Assembly: GCA_045567975.1 (NCBI GenBank)
Contig: JBJLBY010000007.1
Span: 1 to 39,534, forward strand
Length of the DNA stretch: 39,534 bases
Reading direction: 5' to 3'
Source of the DNA: Candidatus Poseidoniales archaeon
GTDB taxonomy: Archaea > Thermoplasmatota > Poseidoniia > MGIII > CG-Epi1
Part shown: piece by piece, positions 33,108 through 39,534 of the stretch
How positions within the stretch are numbered: position 1 is the stretch's first letter
Layout of the letters: every line of letters starts with the position of its first letter
Position numbers and translations under genes: made by a program
Notes under the pieces: model-generated
The model's database searches: none
Told to the model about the DNA's origin: nothing
Seen by the model: only the letters and a program-made list of their open reading frames with translations

Positions 33108-33878
33108 GTGGATTTGGAAACATATAACAAATTAATTGAAGAATTTAAAGAATATCCAGGTTATGGTGTGCATACTGGCGTCGATAAAGTATCTGAAAAA
33201 ATAGGGCAACCTTATGATGCTACAAGGGCAATAAGATCTCAATACCTACAACGTAAATCAATTAGAAATCACTACAGAGTTAAAGAAAAAGCTGGTTTAC
33301 ACTACAAAAAATGGAAAGAAGGAAAGACAATCAGTGAACTAGCTCTGGATCTTGATTTTCCTCCCATTTTATTGGCAAATTTTCTAATGCCAAAAATGAG
33401 ATACTCAAAGAAAAGAAGCAAAGAAATAATGAAGAATACGGATTTAGTAAAAAATAATAAGCGATTAAAGGATGAATTGGATGAAATTCTGGGCAGAGAC
33501 GAACTGTACACTCCATTTTCCCATGGCAAACAGTCTGCTGAAGGTAACCGAAGAGAAGATAAAATTGCTGTATGGCTAGACAAAAAAGAAATTGAATATT
33601 TTACTGAAAATGATCTCAGAGCTGGAACTGTAGAAGGTAAAACTCCAGATTTCTTACTATTGAAACCTATGACATGGCATGGTGACGAATATAATTGGAT
33701 TGAATCAAAAGCTAGCTTTGGTGATGAATATATTCATAGAAAAAATCACAGAGGCCAAGTTTCAGAATATGTAGAATTATATGGTCAAGGAATTTTGGTA
33801 TACTGGTATGGATATCTTAATGTTCTAAAATCTAGAGGATATACTATAGTTGATAGACACGAAATGGGATTAGAATAA
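33108..33878 (+). CDS. PD-(D/E)XK nuclease-fold protein with TPD motif (CDIN1/C15orf41-like), N-terminal helical/HTH-like region
   Basis: 256 aa with a GTG start. C-terminal motifs REDKIAVWL (acidic motif I), GKTPDFLLL (D; codons 33642-33650 = TPD), WIESKASFGD (E-x-K; 33702-33710). N-terminal half WKEGKTISELALDLDFPPILLANFLM looks HTH-like. Confidence 0.55.
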   Translation: MDLETYNKLIEEFKEYPGYGVHTGVDKVSEKIGQPYDATRAIRSQYLQRKSIRNHYRVKEKAGLHYKKWKEGKTISELALDLDFPPILLANFLMPKMRYSKKRSKEIMKNTDLVKNNKRLKDELDEILGRDELYTPFSHGKQSAEGNRREDKIAVWLDKKEIEYFTENDLRAGTVEGKTPDFLLLKPMTWHGDEYNWIESKASFGDEYIHRKNHRGQVSEYVELYGQGILVYWYGYLNVLKSRGYTIVDRHEMGLE

Positions 33879-35597
33879 TTATTTCTTTTTAGAATCTACT
33901 ACAATACTGTGCTTGGAATCTTTCAAATCTTCTTCATCTAATTCTGAATTTGTAATCACGGAAGATTCAACATTGACATTATCTTTACTGAATTCAAGAG
34001 TAGATTTACTAATAACAGAATGCTGAATATTGATAATCTGGGTTACTTGCGTTGGTCTGGCGGCTTGTATCCTAGATAAAACCCTAGCAGCAATAGGTAA
34101 ATCCGAATTGAGAGAAGTTACTTCTCTTATCATCTCGATATCAACACCTAATTTTTCCAAATCAGATAATGTGTAATTGTATGTCAAGGTATCAACCATT
34201 GAAAGGAATGAGTCTTTCTCACGAAGCATATTTTTCTTGTAACGTGATACAGTAATATCCCAAGCACCAGTAACTGCTTGTTTCTTGTATTTATCTTCAT
34301 AAGTTTTGTCTGCAAATTTGAGTTTAATAGTCTGAATGTCAGCCCTTAATGGATTATTTCGTCCAGTTCCTTGAAGAACATCTGCCCAAGTATCGTGTGG
34401 GAAACCAATTGTAGTTCCCTCTCCAGACAAATAGACAATCATCTGATTGAAAGTGTTATGATTTTGTTTGTCATCAAACATTTCCTCAAATTCGGATTCA
34501 ATCTCATCTGCAAAAGAACGATAGAGCATCTCATTGCATCTTCTATCTCTCATATAATCTGACAGGAATATCATACAAGCTAAAGCGTGTAATCCTCCTT
34601 TCTTGTAATTTGGACCATCTTTCAACAATCTTTGCAATATCAGAGCCACATAATTTTCCATTCCTTTTCTAGAATTATCTGTTACAAAATTCTTTGTTAA
34701 TGCCGAAATGCCATTGTATTGCATTTCCTTAATCATTAGCCAAATAAAAATTGGACTTCCCTGTGCATAATTTGTCAATTCTTTGATAGAAGATGGATCA
34801 TGCTTAATGTTTGAGAAATCAAACATTCTCTCGCATAATCGAGAAACATTATCGTCCGAAAATAAAGGAACTGTTAGACGCTTAAACTTCTTCTGAAAAT
34901 CGTCTGGCAATTTATTCCAATCTGCTTCTCTAGCTGTAACAACTAAACCTTTAGCATCATTATCCATAATCCCTTGAACAATATCGATATTCTCTGGAAT
35001 ATCGTCATAAAATAATCTAATTCCAAATTCTAAATGTGCATCAGACATTTCTGTTGTTGTAAGTATACCAGTTGGAACTTTGTCCATAAATGAATCAAAT
35101 ATTTCAAATAATAGAGTAGTTTTCCCTACGCCGGGTTCTCCAATAATAACATAATTATCATCAGATTTACTGCTCAAAACCTCTAGAATATGTGAAGCTC
35201 GCTCATCATCCAAATAAACATTTTTTCTAAGATTTGGTGGAAGGCTCCATTCACTCAAGACAGTCGCTGGGTCAGTTGGAATCTCAAAATAAGATGATAC
35301 TGAAATATCCTTGAAATTATTGTGTAGCTTGTCTAATTCTTTGACATTATCTGGCCATTCTGCATAACACTTCCAACGACTTGTGAATAAATCAAGAAAA
35401 GTTTTGCCGTCTGGAGCTAAATCTGCTGGTTTTTCCCATTCTTGAACTGAGGATCTATACTGTAGATTATTATCTTCTTTCTTGGTTTCGACCTTTGCAG
35501 GAGGTTCAATTTTTTCACCGCGATCAAATTTTCTTTTCTTCGAATCTGCAAGAGCTTTAGCTTTCTGAATCCTCTCAAGGATTTCTTCATAAGACAT
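33879..35597 (-). CDS. STAND / NB-ARC-like P-loop NTPase, cytoplasmic
   Basis: 572 aa. Walker A VIIGEPGVGKTTLLFEI, Walker B IRLFYDDIPE, and an hhhTxR-type sensor motif LVVTAREADW about 25 aa later, then a helical domain of about 330 aa. Its ATG overlaps the stop of the upstream giant gene (TAATG at 35595-35599). Confidence 0.6.
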   Translation of the reverse strand: MSYEEILERIQKAKALADSKKRKFDRGEKIEPPAKVETKKEDNNLQYRSSVQEWEKPADLAPDGKTFLDLFTSRWKCYAEWPDNVKELDKLHNNFKDISVSSYFEIPTDPATVLSEWSLPPNLRKNVYLDDERASHILEVLSSKSDDNYVIIGEPGVGKTTLLFEIFDSFMDKVPTGILTTTEMSDAHLEFGIRLFYDDIPENIDIVQGIMDNDAKGLVVTAREADWNKLPDDFQKKFKRLTVPLFSDDNVSRLCERMFDFSNIKHDPSSIKELTNYAQGSPIFIWLMIKEMQYNGISALTKNFVTDNSRKGMENYVALILQRLLKDGPNYKKGGLHALACMIFLSDYMRDRRCNEMLYRSFADEIESEFEEMFDDKQNHNTFNQMIVYLSGEGTTIGFPHDTWADVLQGTGRNNPLRADIQTIKLKFADKTYEDKYKKQAVTGAWDITVSRYKKNMLREKDSFLSMVDTLTYNYTLSDLEKLGVDIEMIREVTSLNSDLPIAARVLSRIQAARPTQVTQIINIQHSVISKSTLEFSKDNVNVESSVITNSELDEEDLKDSKHSIVVDSKKK

Positions 35598-38500
35598 TAT
35601 TCACTTCCCTTGTTCTTTTGGAAAGATTCTTGCAAATTCTGAGAATAATCGGAACCTACATCCCCTTCCATTTGTGAATTAAGCAAGGCCTCAATTTCAG
35701 CAATCTCAGCTTCAAGTTCAGGTGATGAAACACCAGCTGCTTCTAATTCTGCAACAACACTTTGTAATTCATCCAACTGTTGCATAGTACCCATTGCCTG
35801 ATCTGTAACGCCTGTGTAATTGTTGAGCAATTCTTGGGCATTAGCCATATCTCCTGAGAAATATCTTAATCCCTCTAAGCCTTCTAAATCTTGAATGGCT
35901 TGATTCAAGCTTGAATCATCAACTCCAGCATCAATCAAACTTTGTAATCCTTCAACAATTTGACCTACTGACTGTCTAGCTCCATACTCTGCAAATGCAG
36001 CACCTATCAACGCTGCACCAGCAAGTAGCATTCCATAAACAAATGGATCTCCATCGAACGGTAAAGCCATTTCCTCACTACCTAAATCTGGATCTACAGA
36101 CCCGTAAACACAGCTACCATCATCTGTATCTGCTTCTGGATTGAAGTTGGTCGCTGTGGAATCTACGCAACCAAGAATTGGTTCTACAAACTCACAACTG
36201 CCATCATCAATCGTTGCCTCTGGATTGTAATTTACAGCATCCATATTGAGACAACCTGGTATATCATAGACGCAACTTCCATCGTCCGTATCAGCTTCTG
36301 GATTGAAGTTAATAGCCATAGAATCAACACAACCAAATATTGGTTCTATGAATTCACAAGTTCCATCATCTACAGTTGCTTCGGGATTGTAATTAGTAGC
36401 ATCCATATTCATACAACCTAGAATCTCATAGACGCAACTTCCATCGTCTGTATCTGCTTCTGGGTTGAAGTTAATAGCTGAAGAGTCAACACAACCAAAT
36501 ATTGGTTCTACAAACTCACAACTGCCATCGTCAACTGTTGCTTCGGGATTGTAATTGGTAGCATCCATATTCATGCAGCCGTATATCCCTGAATTAACAA
36601 TAATTATAATTTCTTTTGCTGGGTCCCAACTTCCGGTAAGTACAGTGAGCCAGATACCTTGCTGTTGTACGAGCAAATCAATGTAATGTGTTCCAACTGA
36701 TAAATTATTTGTACTGAAATTTGCATTACTACTGAGGAATCCATCTATGTTTGATTCCCAAACAAGTGCTTCAACACCTTGCCAATTTGTCAAATCAGAA
36801 GTAAAATATACTAGCTCTCCAGAATATGAAGGATTAGGTGTTATACTGTAATCTGCCAATTGTATCATATATTGCAAGATTACAACATAAGACATACTAG
36901 AATCTGACCAAACATCATCGCTATCTCTTACCCTGAAAGTTATAGTGTGATTTCCTGTTGATAGACTATTCGTATGGAATATCTCAGACTCACTCAAAAC
37001 ACCATCTAAATTGGAAGTCCATTCATAACCAACAATATCTCCATCAGAATCTGAAGAATTGGAATAGAAATTGACTCGTTGACCATTATAGGCTAAATTA
37101 GAATCTTGCCATCCATAACCTCTAATGGATATATTATGAACTACAGGGGGCTGGTTCTGAATATCTATATCTAATTCAAAGGTTGTGTTAGTAGACCAAT
37201 CTCCATCGTCATCCTGAGCCCTGAATGTAATAGAATGAACTCCTGCAGACAAATCATCAGTACTGAAATTACCACTGCTGCTGAGGAAACCATCTATACT
37301 AGAATCCCAATAATGTCCGGTAATCGAACCATCAGAATCTGAGAAATTAGAATAGAAATATACTCTTTCTCCATATTCTGCTGGATTTGGACTTACATTA
37401 TAATCTGTTAATTCTGGAGCATCATTACCGAGAATTTCCCATATCAAACTGACCGAATCTCCTTCATTACCTGAAGCATCTGTTGCTTTTACCTGGAACT
37501 GATGATATGTGCCTCTTGCTAATCCTGTATAAGTCTTAGGACTTGAACAACTAGACCATGTTCCGTAATTCAATTTACATTTGAATGTAACATCATCTTC
37601 GTCAGCTTCAAAGTAGAAAGTAGCATTTGTGTAGTCACTTGGGTTTGAAGGTCCACTAGTAATGTTTGCTACAGGTGCTGTTGAGTCACTCACAGTGAAA
37701 TTCATTATTCTGGAAGTAGCCGAACCTGAAGGATCTGTTGCAACAACCTTCCAATAATATTTCTTGGATTCTGTAAGGCCTGTGACCAAATGGGTGTAAT
37801 TGGTGATATCATCAGCGATTAGGGCTGCAGAATTGTTGGTAGCAACATCATTGTAGATGAAACTGAGATAAACGTCGAAGGTGAGATTTGCGATATCATC
37901 ACTTCCTGGGAACCAGCCTAGTATGGTATCGTTCAGAGTAAGACTGCCACTACGAGGTGCGTAATTCATTACAAATGGACGTGAAGCTGAATCTTCTTTG
38001 AAAAGGTAAACATCATCCTGCTCATTGTTTCCTCTAAGAGAACCTGCTGCGATTAAAGCTCCATCTTTAGAAATGGAAATTGCTCTCCCAGATTCATTAT
38101 AATTCCACAGAAGATTACCATCCTCCTTAGAAAGTAAGTAGATCTTATCAGAAATAGCTGCAATATAATTCCCATCTGCAGATAGTGAAACTATAGGCCT
38201 ATTTCCTGTATTATAAGACCAAACTGGTGTAGAACTATCTTTGTCAAACAAAAATACATCGTTGCCAAAATCTCCTGCAGTTATGTACTCTCCATCAGCT
38301 GATATTGCTACTGATTTAACGCGATTATCTACTGCATAATTCCAAAGAGGTGTGTTACTTCCCCTATTAAATGCCAAAACTTTGTCATATCCACCTACTA
38401 TGTATTCTCCATCTGCTGAAATATCTACACAATGGTCTCTACAACTTTCAAAGCTACCTCCGGTTTGATAGCTCCAAAGAGGTGTGCTACTATTCTTATT

Positions 38501-39534
38501 GAAAAAATAAATTTTTCCAGGATCCCAAGCACCTGATGCAGCAACTATGAAACTCCCATCTGCTGAAATTGCGACAGATTGAACATCATCCTCTGTATCA
38601 TAACTCCAAAGAGGCGTGCTACTATCTTTGTGGAAAAGATATATTTTATCATTCTGTGAACCTACTACAATGTAGTCACCATCTGCTGAAATTGCAACTG
38701 AATATATTGGAGATGAACCATCTGGCTCAGATTTCCATAAAGGTGTAGAGCTATTTTTATTGAACAATAAAACTGAACCTGAATTATACGGCCCTATTCC
38801 TGCAACAATGTAATTTGCATTTGCAGATATTGAAAGTGAAGTGACTCCAGAATCAGTTTCATAGCTCCATATAGGTGTAGAACTGCTTGTACCATAAAGA
38901 TAGACGCTGTTACCACTTGAGTAATCGCCAACCACAATATATTCTCCGTCTGCAGATATTGCAATTGATTCAATCTGAACTGGAGAACTGTTATTCCACT
39001 CAGGACTTTTCCTAACATCCACCCAGCTTGTCTCATCATCAGACCAGACTCCGTCATTGTCCTTGACTCTGAAAGTTATGGTATGATTTCCAAAGCTTAG
39101 GTCGGTCTTTGAGAAACTGGCGGAATTAGATAAATCACCATCAATAGAAGATATCCACTTGTATTCTGATATTGTTCCATCTTGATCACTTCCACTTCCT
39201 GAAAACGATACTGAAGCATCCAATTCAGCAATCTGCGGTGATATCGAATCAATACTAGCAGTAGGTGGATAAGATGCCAAAACAATAATCTGGCCTTGAT
39301 AATCATCATCATACTGACAGGAATAATTGTAAGTTCCAACATCATCGAAAGTGTAACTCCAACTATTTCCAGGAAGTATACTTCCAGAATCGAATTCATC
39401 ATCATCTTCCTTCACCGTGTGGATTGAACTGTCGTCATTGGTCCAAATCACAGTTGAATCCTTGAGTATCGTCAATGTATTTGGATCATAATCATCATCG
39501 ATAGATACACAGAATATGTTGCCGTAAGATGTAA
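35597..39534 (-). CDS. giant surface protein (5'-partial): cupredoxin-like domain, PKD domains, 8-bladed beta-propeller, FN3/Ig-like domains, six Cys-bounded NYNPEA..DDGSC modules, TM helix, cytoplasmic coiled-coil tail
   Basis: The track ORF starts at a TTG (39475), but the frame stays open to the window edge (…TSYGNIFCVSIDDDYDPNT-LTILKD), so the gene is truncated by the window. The propeller has 8 repeats of about 42 aa, S(V/I)AISADG.YIV.G....IYLF.K.SSTPLWSY (about 37975-38998). PKD-like motif SGSGSDQDGTISEYKW...HTITFRVKDNDG. TM helix FVYGMLLAGAALIGAAFA. Confidence 0.8.
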   Translation of the reverse strand, partial: TSYGNIFCVSIDDDYDPNTLTILKDSTVIWTNDDSSIHTVKEDDDEFDSGSILPGNSWSYTFDDVGTYNYSCQYDDDYQGQIIVLASYPPTASIDSISPQIAELDASVSFSGSGSDQDGTISEYKWISSIDGDLSNSASFSKTDLSFGNHTITFRVKDNDGVWSDDETSWVDVRKSPEWNNSSPVQIESIAISADGEYIVVGDYSSGNSVYLYGTSSSTPIWSYETDSGVTSLSISANANYIVAGIGPYNSGSVLLFNKNSSTPLWKSEPDGSSPIYSVAISADGDYIVVGSQNDKIYLFHKDSSTPLWSYDTEDDVQSVAISADGSFIVAASGAWDPGKIYFFNKNSSTPLWSYQTGGSFESCRDHCVDISADGEYIVGGYDKVLAFNRGSNTPLWNYAVDNRVKSVAISADGEYITAGDFGNDVFLFDKDSSTPVWSYNTGNRPIVSLSADGNYIAAISDKIYLLSKEDGNLLWNYNESGRAISISKDGALIAAGSLRGNNEQDDVYLFKEDSASRPFVMNYAPRSGSLTLNDTILGWFPGSDDIANLTFDVYLSFIYNDVATNNSAALIADDITNYTHLVTGLTESKKYYWKVVATDPSGSATSRIMNFTVSDSTAPVANITSGPSNPSDYTNATFYFEADEDDVTFKCKLNYGTWSSCSSPKTYTGLARGTYHQFQVKATDASGNEGDSVSLIWEILGNDAPELTDYNVSPNPAEYGERVYFYSNFSDSDGSITGHYWDSSIDGFLSSSGNFSTDDLSAGVHSITFRAQDDDGDWSTNTTFELDIDIQNQPPVVHNISIRGYGWQDSNLAYNGQRVNFYSNSSDSDGDIVGYEWTSNLDGVLSESEIFHTNSLSTGNHTITFRVRDSDDVWSDSSMSYVVILQYMIQLADYSITPNPSYSGELVYFTSDLTNWQGVEALVWESNIDGFLSSNANFSTNNLSVGTHYIDLLVQQQGIWLTVLTGSWDPAKEIIIIVNSGIYGCMNMDATNYNPEATVDDGSCEFVEPIFGCVDSSAINFNPEADTDDGSCVYEILGCMNMDATNYNPEATVDDGTCEFIEPIFGCVDSMAINFNPEADTDDGSCVYDIPGCLNMDAVNYNPEATIDDGSCEFVEPILGCVDSTATNFNPEADTDDGSCVYGSVDPDLGSEEMALPFDGDPFVYGMLLAGAALIGAAFAEYGARQSVGQIVEGLQSLIDAGVDDSSLNQAIQDLEGLEGLRYFSGDMANAQELLNNYTGVTDQAMGTMQQLDELQSVVAELEAAGVSSPELEAEIAEIEALLNSQMEGDVGSDYSQNLQESFQKNKGSE
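36095..36580 (-). repeat. three tandem 162-nt coding repeats (36419-36580, 36257-36418, 36095-36256)
   Basis: Each unit encodes GC(M/L)NMDA(T/V)NYNPEAT(V/I)DDG(S/T)CEF(V/I)EPI(F/L)GCVDS.A(I/T)NFNPEADTDDGSCVY... Units are in exact 162-nt register and look roughly 80-90% identical at DNA level by eye. Confidence 0.9.

What the first reader, a model, noticed from the sequence alone, without database searches (positions are those of the whole stretch)
33879..39534. Giant multi-domain surface protein with a cytoplasmic coiled-coil tail, translationally coupled (TAATG) to a STAND/NB-ARC-like NTPase: a possible outside-in sensing pair
The protein of more than 1311 aa (5' end beyond the window) strings together:
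- a cupredoxin-like domain and a PKD domain;
- an 8-bladed propeller of 42-aa SVAISADGEYIV.G...IYLF.K.SSTPLWSY repeats;
- an FN3-like domain;
- an Ig-like domain with the pattern T.A.F.F...F.C.L....W..C.SP..Y..L..G.H.F.V.A.D..GN;
- three more PKD-like domains;
- six Cys-bounded modules;
- one TM helix;
- a cytoplasmic tail of about 150 aa, Glu/Leu/Gln-rich and predicted coiled-coil (…QQLDELQSVVAELEAAGVSSPELEAEIAEIEALLNSQ…).

Its stop overlaps the ATG of a 572-aa soluble P-loop protein. That protein's Walker A, Walker B and TAR sensor spacing resemble STAND/NB-ARC switches, and a large helical domain follows.

Coupled translation implies stoichiometric co-production. A plausible but unproven model is that the NTPase docks on the tail and transduces or regulates ligand binding by the ectodomain. 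I do not know of a described archaeal system with this pairing.
Basis: partly seen in the sequence, partly recalled or inferred. Interest (0 to 1): 0.6.

Follow-up and report, generated by a model that had tools for sequence, protein, structure and literature searches.

The report
Split surface protein–STAND NTPase pair
In an uncultured marine archaeon (Marine Group III), a large, variable cell-surface protein ends inside the cell in a conserved acidic tail, and its gene is always followed, stop overlapping start, by a gene for a soluble STAND-type nucleotide switch; in sister genes that switch is fused directly behind the membrane helix of giant surface proteins, so the two genes very probably act as one receptor-like unit across the membrane, though its function is untested.

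Summary
A 5'-open ORF of at least 1311 aa (35597-39532, minus strand) encodes cupredoxin-like, PKD, 8-blade propeller, FN3/Ig-like, 3 PKD and 6 Cys modules, one TM helix and a 129-aa acidic tail. Its TAA shares one base with the ATG of a 572-aa P-loop protein.

The NTPase belongs to a small family that is almost confined to Marine Group III. It is a divergent branch of nSTAND3-like STAND NTPases: Walker A/B, sensor-1 Arg, GxP and an invariant FPHD.

Two lines of evidence link the two genes.
- In 10 of 10 loci of the soluble clade with upstream DNA, the NTPase gene sits -4 to +3 nt behind a surface-protein gene. The ectodomains differ, but the TM and tail are homologous.
- In the sister clade (24 of 38 loci, including a paralogue in this genome) the same NTPase domain is fused directly behind the TM helix of giant ectodomains.

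Pairing is therefore well supported. Physical docking on the tail and the direction of signalling remain inference.

This scan had already found the fused form on other DNA. The two-gene form with its tail cassette is the new element. No description was found in the searched literature.

The parts
35597..39532 (-). Surface-protein gene, at least 1311 aa; the 5' end lies beyond the contig; the stop TAA is at 35597-35599
   Evidence: ORF list. Pfam finds PKD and propeller domains. The window is the whole contig.
36089..39532 (-). Ectodomain (residues 1-1148): cupredoxin-like, PKD, 8-blade propeller, FN3-like, Ig-like, three PKD-like domains, six Cys-bounded modules
   Evidence: It holds 22 of the 23 N-glycosylation sequons. 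It is not conserved between orthologous loci except through repeats.
35987..36046 (-). Single transmembrane helix (residues 1163-1182, FVYGMLLAGAALIGAAFAEY region)
   Evidence: It is the only 19-residue window with mean hydropathy of 1.6 or more. It aligns with the TM of 9 homologues.
35600..35986 (-). Conserved cytoplasmic tail cassette, 129 aa, net charge -20. Conserved pattern: E..aR.S...egL..L...GI....I..A...L....G...fS.....Ak..L..Y...t...l..M.eL.eL.......e..G.sS.el..Eis..E
   Evidence: It aligns end to end in 10 of 10 partner proteins, at 28-73% identity. It has no Pfam family. It occurs once per genome, only next to the soluble NTPase.
35595..35599 (-). TAATG junction: stop and start share one base, with a purine-rich aagggaag 6-13 nt upstream
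   Evidence: Homologous loci have TAATG, TAGTG, ATGA, or a 0-3 nt gap.
33879..35597 (-). Gene for a soluble 572-aa STAND-type NTPase
35523..35597 (-). N-terminal helix of the NTPase (residues 1-25, MSYEEILERIQKAKALADSKKRKF). It is basic and conserved at the start of all soluble family members.
   Evidence: helix 3-25, pLDDT 77-84. Residues 1-50 have a net charge of +3.
35163..35450 (-). Family-specific pre-NOD domain (residues about 50-145: W..P...RW.CY..WP.N..ELD.LHNN...SYFEIPTDP..EW.LP). In fused paralogues it lies 15-50 aa after the TM.
   Evidence: Invariant columns, the model and the fusions.
34353..35162 (-). NOD: Walker A G153EPGVGKT160, Walker B L195FYDD199, sensor-1 T221AR223, R240LTVPLF246, GxP G280SP282, winged-helix-like region with invariant F399PHD402
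   Evidence: These columns are invariant across the 36-38 aligned sequences. AF2 model pLDDT 87.7, pTM 0.84. Foldseek top hit is Avs5 SIR2-STAND.
33882..34352 (-). C-terminal helical bundle (residues about 416-516), then a low-confidence tail with three xSV(I/V)xxS repeats (HSVISKS, SSVITNS, HSIVVDS)

Best explanation
The two genes encode the two halves of one membrane-spanning unit of a Marine Group III archaeon.

The first product is a type-I surface protein. Its large ectodomain is freely exchangeable (adhesin-like or ligand-binding), and it crosses the membrane once. It ends in a conserved 129-aa acidic helical tail.

The second product is made from the same transcript by re-initiation at the overlapping TAATG. 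It is a soluble STAND NTPase (nSTAND3-like NOD: P-loop, helical lid, winged-helix with FPHD), preceded by a basic N-terminal helix and a family-specific juxtamembrane domain.

I infer that the NTPase docks on the tail. That would reproduce non-covalently the architecture of the sister clade, where the same NTPase is fused 15-50 aa behind the TM helix of giant ectodomains. By analogy with other STAND proteins, nucleotide exchange or hydrolysis would then switch the NOD between monomer and oligomer. This would couple the state of the ectodomain (ligand engagement, clustering) to the cytoplasm.

Shown: gene structure, homology, conserved adjacency, the fusions, and intact catalytic motifs.

Inferred: physical docking, translational coupling, oligomerisation, and the direction of signalling (outside-in or inside-out).
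For: 1. The NTPase domain recurs behind a TM helix at the end of giant open frames.
- The paralogue at G000:C4 lies in an open frame of 2951 aa.
- In relatives the open frames reach 7474 aa.
- 24 of 38 genome loci have a TM ending 60 aa or less before the domain.

2. In the soluble clade, the upstream gene encodes a surface protein with a TM and a homologous acidic tail in 10 of 10 loci that have upstream DNA. Junctions are -4 to +3 nt. The upstream gene is 8525 aa in GCA_000372505.1.

3. The tail tracks NTPase divergence while the ectodomains are unrelated or share only repeat units. Tail identity is 28-73% and NTPase identity 58-87%. DNA homology between orthologous loci starts inside the tail and runs through the NTPase.

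4. There is one tail per genome, and only where the adjacent soluble NTPase exists.

5. STAND assignment.
- The profile search reaches proteins that pass PF20720's cut-off: P0148 at E 5e-63, P0162 at 1e-41, P0192 at 2e-30 and P0207 at 2e-27.
- Their PF20720 scores are 28.1-32.0 bits against a cut-off of 27.2. Other distant hits carry TPR (P0155, P0257) or WD40 (P0167) C-termini.
- Walker A/B, sensor-1 Arg, GxP and FPHD are invariant.
- The high-confidence model's best PDB match is EfAvs5 SIR2-STAND, with NLRP2 and SAMD9 also listed.

6. Charge is complementary: the tail is -20 and NTPase residues 1-50 are +3.
Against:
- A subclade of soluble homologues (L042/L070, 49% identity) keeps the N-terminal helix but has no surface-protein gene upstream. 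So the helix alone cannot be a dedicated tail receptor.
- Foldseek scores do not separate STAND from classical AAA+. RuvB, RFC and ClpC have similar E-values, and TM-scores are 0.2-0.48.
- The window protein itself is below every Pfam cut-off.
- It lacks the C-terminal repeat sensor typical of STAND proteins.
- The tree shows the soluble and fused clades as old sisters. The pair is therefore not a recent fission, and fused and split forms could have diverged in function.
Confidence: 0.7

Rival explanations
1. This is an antiviral or conflict system of the Avs type. The STAND NTPase would be an immune sensor or executor, and the hypervariable surface protein would be its sensor, decoy or effector (for example detecting virus attachment or altering the envelope).
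For: The only characterised nSTAND3 proteins are Avs5 antiviral proteins, and the top Foldseek hit is EfAvs5. The ectodomains turn over quickly next to a conserved cytoplasmic module, as expected under an arms race. One distant relative (L067) ends in an FGE-sulfatase/C-type-lectin-like domain, a typical variable sensor.
Against: The 572-aa protein has no effector domain (nuclease, SIR2, TIR or protease). PADLOC gives only P-loop-level noise. The locus is syntenic chromosomal DNA: TPD nuclease, M24 peptidase and TSP3 genes are conserved in the orthologous loci L026 and L027. There are 1-4 copies per genome across the family. This does not look like a patchy mobile island.
Confidence: 0.12
2. 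This is a biogenesis, anchoring or quality-control ATPase. The NTPase would bind the tail to assist membrane insertion, folding, turnover or sub-membrane anchoring of very large surface proteins, rather than to signal.
For: There is a strict 1:1 pairing with giant proteins and a conserved tail. The fold is of AAA+ grade with Clp/RuvB/RFC-like hits.
Against: The motif set is of STAND type, not that of a hexameric unfoldase: sensor-1 Arg, GxP, and a winged-helix with invariant His-Asp. Relatives carry TPR, WD40 or lectin-like sensor domains. Covalent fusion at the C-terminus of the client would be unusual for a chaperone.
Confidence: 0.12
3. The split is an artefact, or the adjacency has no functional meaning. 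Either a frameshift or assembly error cut a fused gene in two, or two unrelated genes merely happen to abut.
For: Earlier notes report homopolymer frameshift errors elsewhere on this contig (e1-3679282).
Against: The same gene boundary, with a conserved MSYEEIL-type start and a separate stop for the tail, occurs in at least 10 independent assemblies. The tail cassette does not exist in the fused clade. The adjacency and the fusions are both conserved.
Confidence: 0.03

Closest known systems
nSTAND3-type STAND NTPases (Pfam PF20720), e.g. the NTPase of Avs5 SIR2-STAND antiviral proteins (PDB 9jap; bioRxiv 10.1101/2025.07.08.663546)
   Same: They share a P-loop NOD with sensor-1 Arg, a helical lid with GxP, and a winged-helix region. 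Distant relatives of the window protein pass the PF20720 cut-off. The best Foldseek hit is EfAvs5.
   Different: There is no N-terminal enzymatic effector and no C-terminal TPR/Sel1/PPR sensor. The partner is an extracellular protein reached through a TM helix and tail. The family-specific pre-NOD domain is absent from Avs5. The window protein is below the Pfam cut-off (19.4 vs 27.2 bits). No defence context was found.
Giant Marine Group III surface proteins with a C-terminal fused STAND NTPase
   Same: The NTPase core is homologous (44-50% identity over about 480 aa) and on the same side of the membrane. The ectodomains are the same type of variable PKD/LamG/propeller assembly, and the lineage is the same.
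   Different: In the window the link is non-covalent: there are two genes, a 129-aa tail cassette on the surface protein and an N-terminal helix on the NTPase. The roughly 400-450 aa that follow the NTPase in fusions are missing (no Pfam match in the C4 paralogue; acidic MDDLFSKLDEL repeats). The two forms are sister clades, not a recent fission.
SPEARE proteins of Nanohaloarchaeota (Hamm et al. 2019, PMC6642349)
   Same: The design principle is the same: a very long, variable, adhesion-rich ectodomain; a single TM near the C-terminus; and a cytoplasmic portion that is the most conserved part and is a nucleotide-dependent enzyme.
   Different: The cytoplasmic part of SPEARE is type III restriction-enzyme-like, not STAND. 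SPEARE is a single polypeptide, comes from a different phylum (DPANN symbionts), and shows no sequence relation.
Predicted metazoan (oyster) receptors with a Cys-rich ectodomain, a TM, and an intracellular Death/TRADD-N module with STAND NTPases (Kaur et al. 2021, PMC8195603)
   Same: Both have an extracellular domain, one TM, and a cytoplasmic module that can include a STAND NTPase.
   Different: The oyster proteins are eukaryotic, use Death-fold adaptors, and arose by lineage-specific expansion in an immune context. There is no homology of tail or ectodomain. They too are only predicted.

Membership tests
STAND NTPases (Leipe et al. 2004 definition) | P-loop NTPase core with intact Walker A (GxxGxGKT) and Walker B (hhhhDD) | tested here: met
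   G153EPGVGKT160 and L195FYDD199 are invariant or nearly invariant in alignments A1 and A2. Strands and helices are in the expected order in the model.
STAND NTPases (Leipe et al. 2004 definition) | Sensor-1 arginine after the strand that follows Walker B (the 'TTR'-type motif), instead of the polar sensor-1 of classical AAA+ | tested here: met
   In VVTAR223EADW the Arg is invariant in both alignments, directly after strand 218-222. That this motif marks STAND proteins rests on established knowledge of Apaf-1 and plant NLRs.
STAND NTPases (Leipe et al. 2004 definition) | Helical lid with GxP motif, followed by a winged-helix domain carrying a conserved His (MHD-type) that senses the nucleotide | tested here: inconclusive
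   G280-S-P282 and F399-P-H-D402 are invariant. FPHD follows a short strand in a helix-strand region.
STAND NTPases (Leipe et al. 2004 definition) | C-terminal sensor built of repeats (TPR, WD40, LRR and the like) | tested here: not met
   The window protein ends in a helical bundle of about 100 aa and a disordered tail. Distant relatives do have TPR, WD40 or FGE-like ends.
Pfam PF20720 nSTAND3 | Score at or above the gathering cut-off (27.2 bits) | tested here: not met
   The window protein scores 19.4 bits, over the P-loop region only. 28 of 38 family members hit it weakly. Relatives found by the family profile at E 5e-63 to 2e-27 do pass, at 28.1-32.0 bits. The link is therefore transitive, not direct.
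   16.2 bits against a cut-off of 23.5, over residues 135-170 only. Only 1 of 38 members hits it.
Classical AAA+ (Clp/RuvB/RFC type) | Fold match with ring-forming AAA+ proteins plus a polar sensor-1 and an arginine finger | tested here: inconclusive
   Foldseek lists RuvB, RFC and ClpC at E about 1e-6 with TM-scores of 0.3-0.48, the same range as the STAND hits. HMM matches to ClpB/ClpC cover only the P-loop. Sensor-1 is Arg, which argues against membership.
SPEARE proteins | Cytoplasmic type III restriction-enzyme-like domain behind the TM of a giant adhesin | tested here: not met
   No ResIII or helicase family matches the window proteins. The likeness is architectural only.
Known anti-phage systems (PADLOC) | Significant match to a defence-system model | tested here: not met
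   Only mad8 (E 1.3e-3) and PtuA (E 3.7e-3) matched, both P-loop-level.

The most novel reading that the evidence does not exclude
The tail cassette and soluble STAND NTPase are a portable cytoplasmic adaptor. It would turn any giant surface protein of Marine Group III into a receptor. Ligand binding or mechanical load on the ectodomain would be relayed through the tail to an NLR-like nucleotide switch that oligomerises under the membrane (or, running the other way, clusters the ectodomains). That would be a prokaryotic surface-receptor-to-NLR pathway, assembled non-covalently and distinct from two-component signalling, which these genomes also have in small numbers.
Probability: 0.3. Interest if true: 0.8.

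Novelty: new variant of a known kind. Interest (0 to 1): 0.62.

Why it matters
STAND/NLR switches are known as cytoplasmic sensors for immunity, cell death and transcription. Here one is tied, in two independent ways (fusion and a conserved two-gene pair), to the cytoplasmic end of giant, fast-changing surface proteins. These proteins take up a sizeable share of a genome of about 1.1 Mb in abundant, uncultured ocean archaea.

The split form is useful experimentally. It supplies two small soluble pieces, a 129-aa tail and a 572-aa NTPase, that can be expressed and tested for binding, nucleotide dependence and oligomerisation. The ectodomains of 2,000 to 8,500 aa need not be handled at all.

If the pair signals, it would be a new route for archaeal surface sensing or adhesion control. 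It would also give a function to some of the largest archaeal genes known.

Tried and rejected
- The first AF2 model, built from close homologues only, was poor (pLDDT 63, pTM 0.39) and its Foldseek matches were uninformative. A more diverse alignment fixed the model.
- Profile searches against PDB sequences found only P-loop-local matches to ClpB/ClpC.
- The tail has no Pfam family. A suspected SHOCT-like motif (…ELEAAGVSSPELEAEI…) was not supported: SHOCT hit only an unrelated neighbour in L024, at E 0.084.
- The C-terminal 474 aa of the fused paralogue has no Pfam hit. It shows no BLASTP similarity to the N-terminal coiled-coil/CARDB insert of the long soluble forms.
- PADLOC gave no defence-system match.
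- The hypothesis that the split is a recent fission of a fused gene was rejected by the tree. The soluble and fused clades are sisters, and the 572-aa form derives from longer soluble forms.
- The idea that the C-terminal xSVIxxS repeats are a shared tag in this genome was rejected: this is the only ORF with the motif.
- The idea that the lineage lacks two-component systems was rejected: response regulators and histidine-kinase ATPase domains are present.
- Literature searches for Marine Group III giant proteins and for transmembrane STAND proteins found no description.


Full report
**1. What is in the sequence**

The minus strand of 33879-39534 carries two ORFs.
- The first is 5'-open, 1311 aa, at 35597..39532.
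- The second is 572 aa, at 33879..35597.

The junction reads gaa-TAATG-tct, so stop and start share one base. The window is the whole contig C7 of a 750-kb assembly that is 71% complete. The missing 5' end therefore cannot be recovered here. Record titles of related loci identify the lineage as Marine Group III euryarchaeotes (Poseidoniia, CG-Epi1).

**2. The surface protein**

Pfam supports PKD domains and a PQQ/WD40-type propeller. It gives a just-sub-threshold cupredoxin-like N-terminus. I counted eight propeller blades and six Cys-bounded modules.

There is one hydrophobic segment (1163-1182), followed by 129 residues with a net charge of -20. Twenty-two of 23 N-x-S/T sequons and all Cys modules lie before the TM. 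A conserved Arg follows the TM in all ten homologues. In paralogues, a P-loop domain sits on the tail's side of the membrane. The tail is therefore cytoplasmic.

The tail contains conserved Gly/Pro breaks. A bundle of short helices is at least as likely as one long coiled coil, but this was not tested.

**3. The NTPase**

On its own it gives only P-loop-level hits below the cut-offs, to nSTAND3, NACHT, AAA_16 and NB-ARC. Its family is small: a profile search of 1.84 billion representatives found 168 proteins.

Distant members found by that profile (E 5e-63 to 2e-27) pass Pfam's nSTAND3 gathering score. Some carry C-terminal TPR or WD40 repeats, and one ends in an FGE-sulfatase/lectin-like domain.

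The following positions are invariant across 36-38 sequences:
- Walker A, GEPGVGKT
- Walker B, LFYDD
- a sensor-1 Arg, TAR223
- RLTVPLF
- a GxP motif, G280SP
- FPHD402 in a winged-helix-like region

A first AF2 model was poor. With a more diverse alignment the core (residues 45-530) reached pLDDT 87.7 and pTM 0.84. Its best PDB match is EfAvs5 (SIR2-STAND), and NLRP2 and SAMD9 are also listed. RuvB, RFC and ClpC score similarly, and TM-scores are low.

My reading is a divergent nSTAND3-like STAND NTPase. It is not NB-ARC, not a housekeeping ATPase, and not a member of any curated family by direct score.

**4. The link between the two genes**

*(a) Fusions.* The same genome has a paralogue (46% identity) inside a 2951-aa open frame. 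Its order is PKD/LamG ectodomain, TM helix, NTPase, then a further cytoplasmic region. In relatives the domain lies in open frames of up to 7474 aa. In 24 of 38 genome loci, a TM helix ends no more than 60 residues before the domain.

*(b) Conserved adjacency.* Every soluble-clade locus with upstream DNA has, directly upstream, a surface-protein gene. These loci are the window, L022, L025, L027, L029, L032/L033, L039, L072, L074 and L076, with NTPase identity of 57-91%. The ectodomain differs from case to case, but the TM and tail align end to end. One of these upstream genes is 8525 aa.

Junctions are TAATG, TAGTG, ATGA, or a 0-3 nt gap, usually with a purine-rich stretch 6-14 nt upstream.

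*(c) Co-inheritance.* Tail identity (28-73%) follows NTPase identity (58-87%), whereas the ectodomains match only through repeat units or not at all. DNA homology between orthologous loci begins in the last 65 or so codons of the tail and runs through the NTPase.

*(d) One-to-one occurrence.* The tail occurs once per genome, and only where the adjacent soluble NTPase exists.

**5. Evolution**

A tree rooted on nSTAND3-passing relatives splits the Marine Group III family into a soluble clade (SH-aLRT 90) and a TM-fused clade (94). The window's 572-aa form is nested among longer soluble forms (735-912 aa). Those forms carry a coiled-coil and CARDB-like insert between the conserved N-terminal helix and the NTPase core.

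The pair is thus an old, stable alternative to the fusion, not a recent fission or an assembly artefact. Earlier notes warn of homopolymer frameshifts on this contig. However, the gene boundary is reproduced in at least 10 independent assemblies.

One subclade (L042/L070) lacks the upstream partner. It sits next to a HerA-like ATPase and DUF805 membrane proteins.

**6. Mechanism**

Shown: two co-oriented, overlapping genes; homologous tail cassettes; a STAND-type NOD with intact catalytic motifs; and the same NOD covalently tethered behind a TM in sister genes.

Inferred: the soluble NTPase docks on the acidic tail. The candidate surfaces are its basic N-terminal helix, and the family-specific pre-NOD domain that lies next to the membrane in the fusions. 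Like other STAND proteins, it would then switch by nucleotide exchange between monomer and oligomer, coupling ectodomain state to the cytoplasm.

The direction of signalling is open. In STAND logic the N-terminal side is usually the output. That would favour inside-out clustering in the fused forms. The window protein lacks any C-terminal sensor, which leaves the tail as its only obvious input.

Rival explanations are an Avs-like antiviral role and a biogenesis or anchoring role. Neither is excluded.

**7. Comparison and novelty**

- The closest relatives by sequence are nSTAND3/Avs5 NTPases.
- The closest by architecture are the fused Marine Group III proteins. This scan has already reported them on other DNA (e1-3193229, e1-3581880).
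- SPEARE proteins of Nanohaloarchaeota share the layout of variable ectodomain, TM near the C-terminus and conserved cytoplasmic enzyme, but with a restriction-enzyme-like domain.
- Predicted oyster receptors place STAND modules behind a TM.

I found no description of the Marine Group III design or of the tail cassette in the searched literature. These genomes do have a few two-component systems, so this is not their only possible sensing route.

**8. Limits**

- No multimer prediction was available.
- There were no model coordinates to check the geometry of the conserved His.
- The N-terminus of the surface protein is missing.
- No member of the family has been studied experimentally.

Noticed in passing
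G000:C4:1-8856 (+), outside the window (L002 covers part): This is the fused paralogue: a 2951-aa 5'-open frame with PKD/LamG repeats, a TM, the NTPase domain, and then about 470 aa with no Pfam match. It ends in an acidic region with three MDDL(F/L)(S/G)KL(D/G)EL repeats, the last one at the very C-terminus. These look like short docking peptides.
   Followed up: partly
L033 1-10004 (NCBI GCA_000372505.1, AQTW01000003.1): The surface-protein gene upstream of an 841-aa soluble NTPase is called at 8525 aa. That is in the size range of the largest archaeal proteins cited in PMC6642349 (halomucin about 9000 aa, SPEARE 8553 aa).
   Followed up: no
L024 (G013:C5:48000-66000) and L023 (G016:C31): The partner-less 840-845-aa soluble homologues sit divergently from a 740-aa HerA/DUF87-like ATPase with a C-terminal hydrophobic end. 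They are followed by two DUF805 membrane proteins and a primase-small-subunit-like gene. Several neighbours end in short helix-Gly-helix (SHOCT-like) or DSVINRS-like motifs.
   Followed up: partly
L067 9920-13075: A 1051-aa relative (37% identity) has the NTPase at its N-terminus and a C-terminal FGE-sulfatase/C-type-lectin-like domain. That is the kind of variable sensor seen in STAND 'antigen sensor' proteins.
   Followed up: no
window 33108-33878 (+): A TPD-family (PF14811) gene lies convergent and stop-to-stop with the NTPase gene. It is also next to, or near, the NTPase in L026, L027, L004, L072 and L074, but not in L029 or L032. This looks like local synteny rather than a functional link.
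   Followed up: partly
window 33882-34049 (-), NTPase residues 517-572: The disordered C-terminus carries three xSV(I/V)xxS repeats (HSVISKS, SSVITNS, HSIVVDS). The family consensus is IINIQDSVINRSTLNF..EDSVI. No other ORF of this genome has the motif.
   Followed up: partly
L034, L039, L040, L041, L060 (genome contigs record titles): Contigs carrying this archaeal gene pair are binned in MAGs labelled Rhodospirillaceae, Dehalococcoidia and Kiritimatiellia. These are most likely binning errors in those public MAGs.
   Followed up: no
G000:C16:30483-32896: A small two-component cluster is conserved across the genus: a histidine-kinase ATPase domain plus two response-regulator receiver domains. 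The lineage is therefore not devoid of classical sensors.
   Followed up: partly
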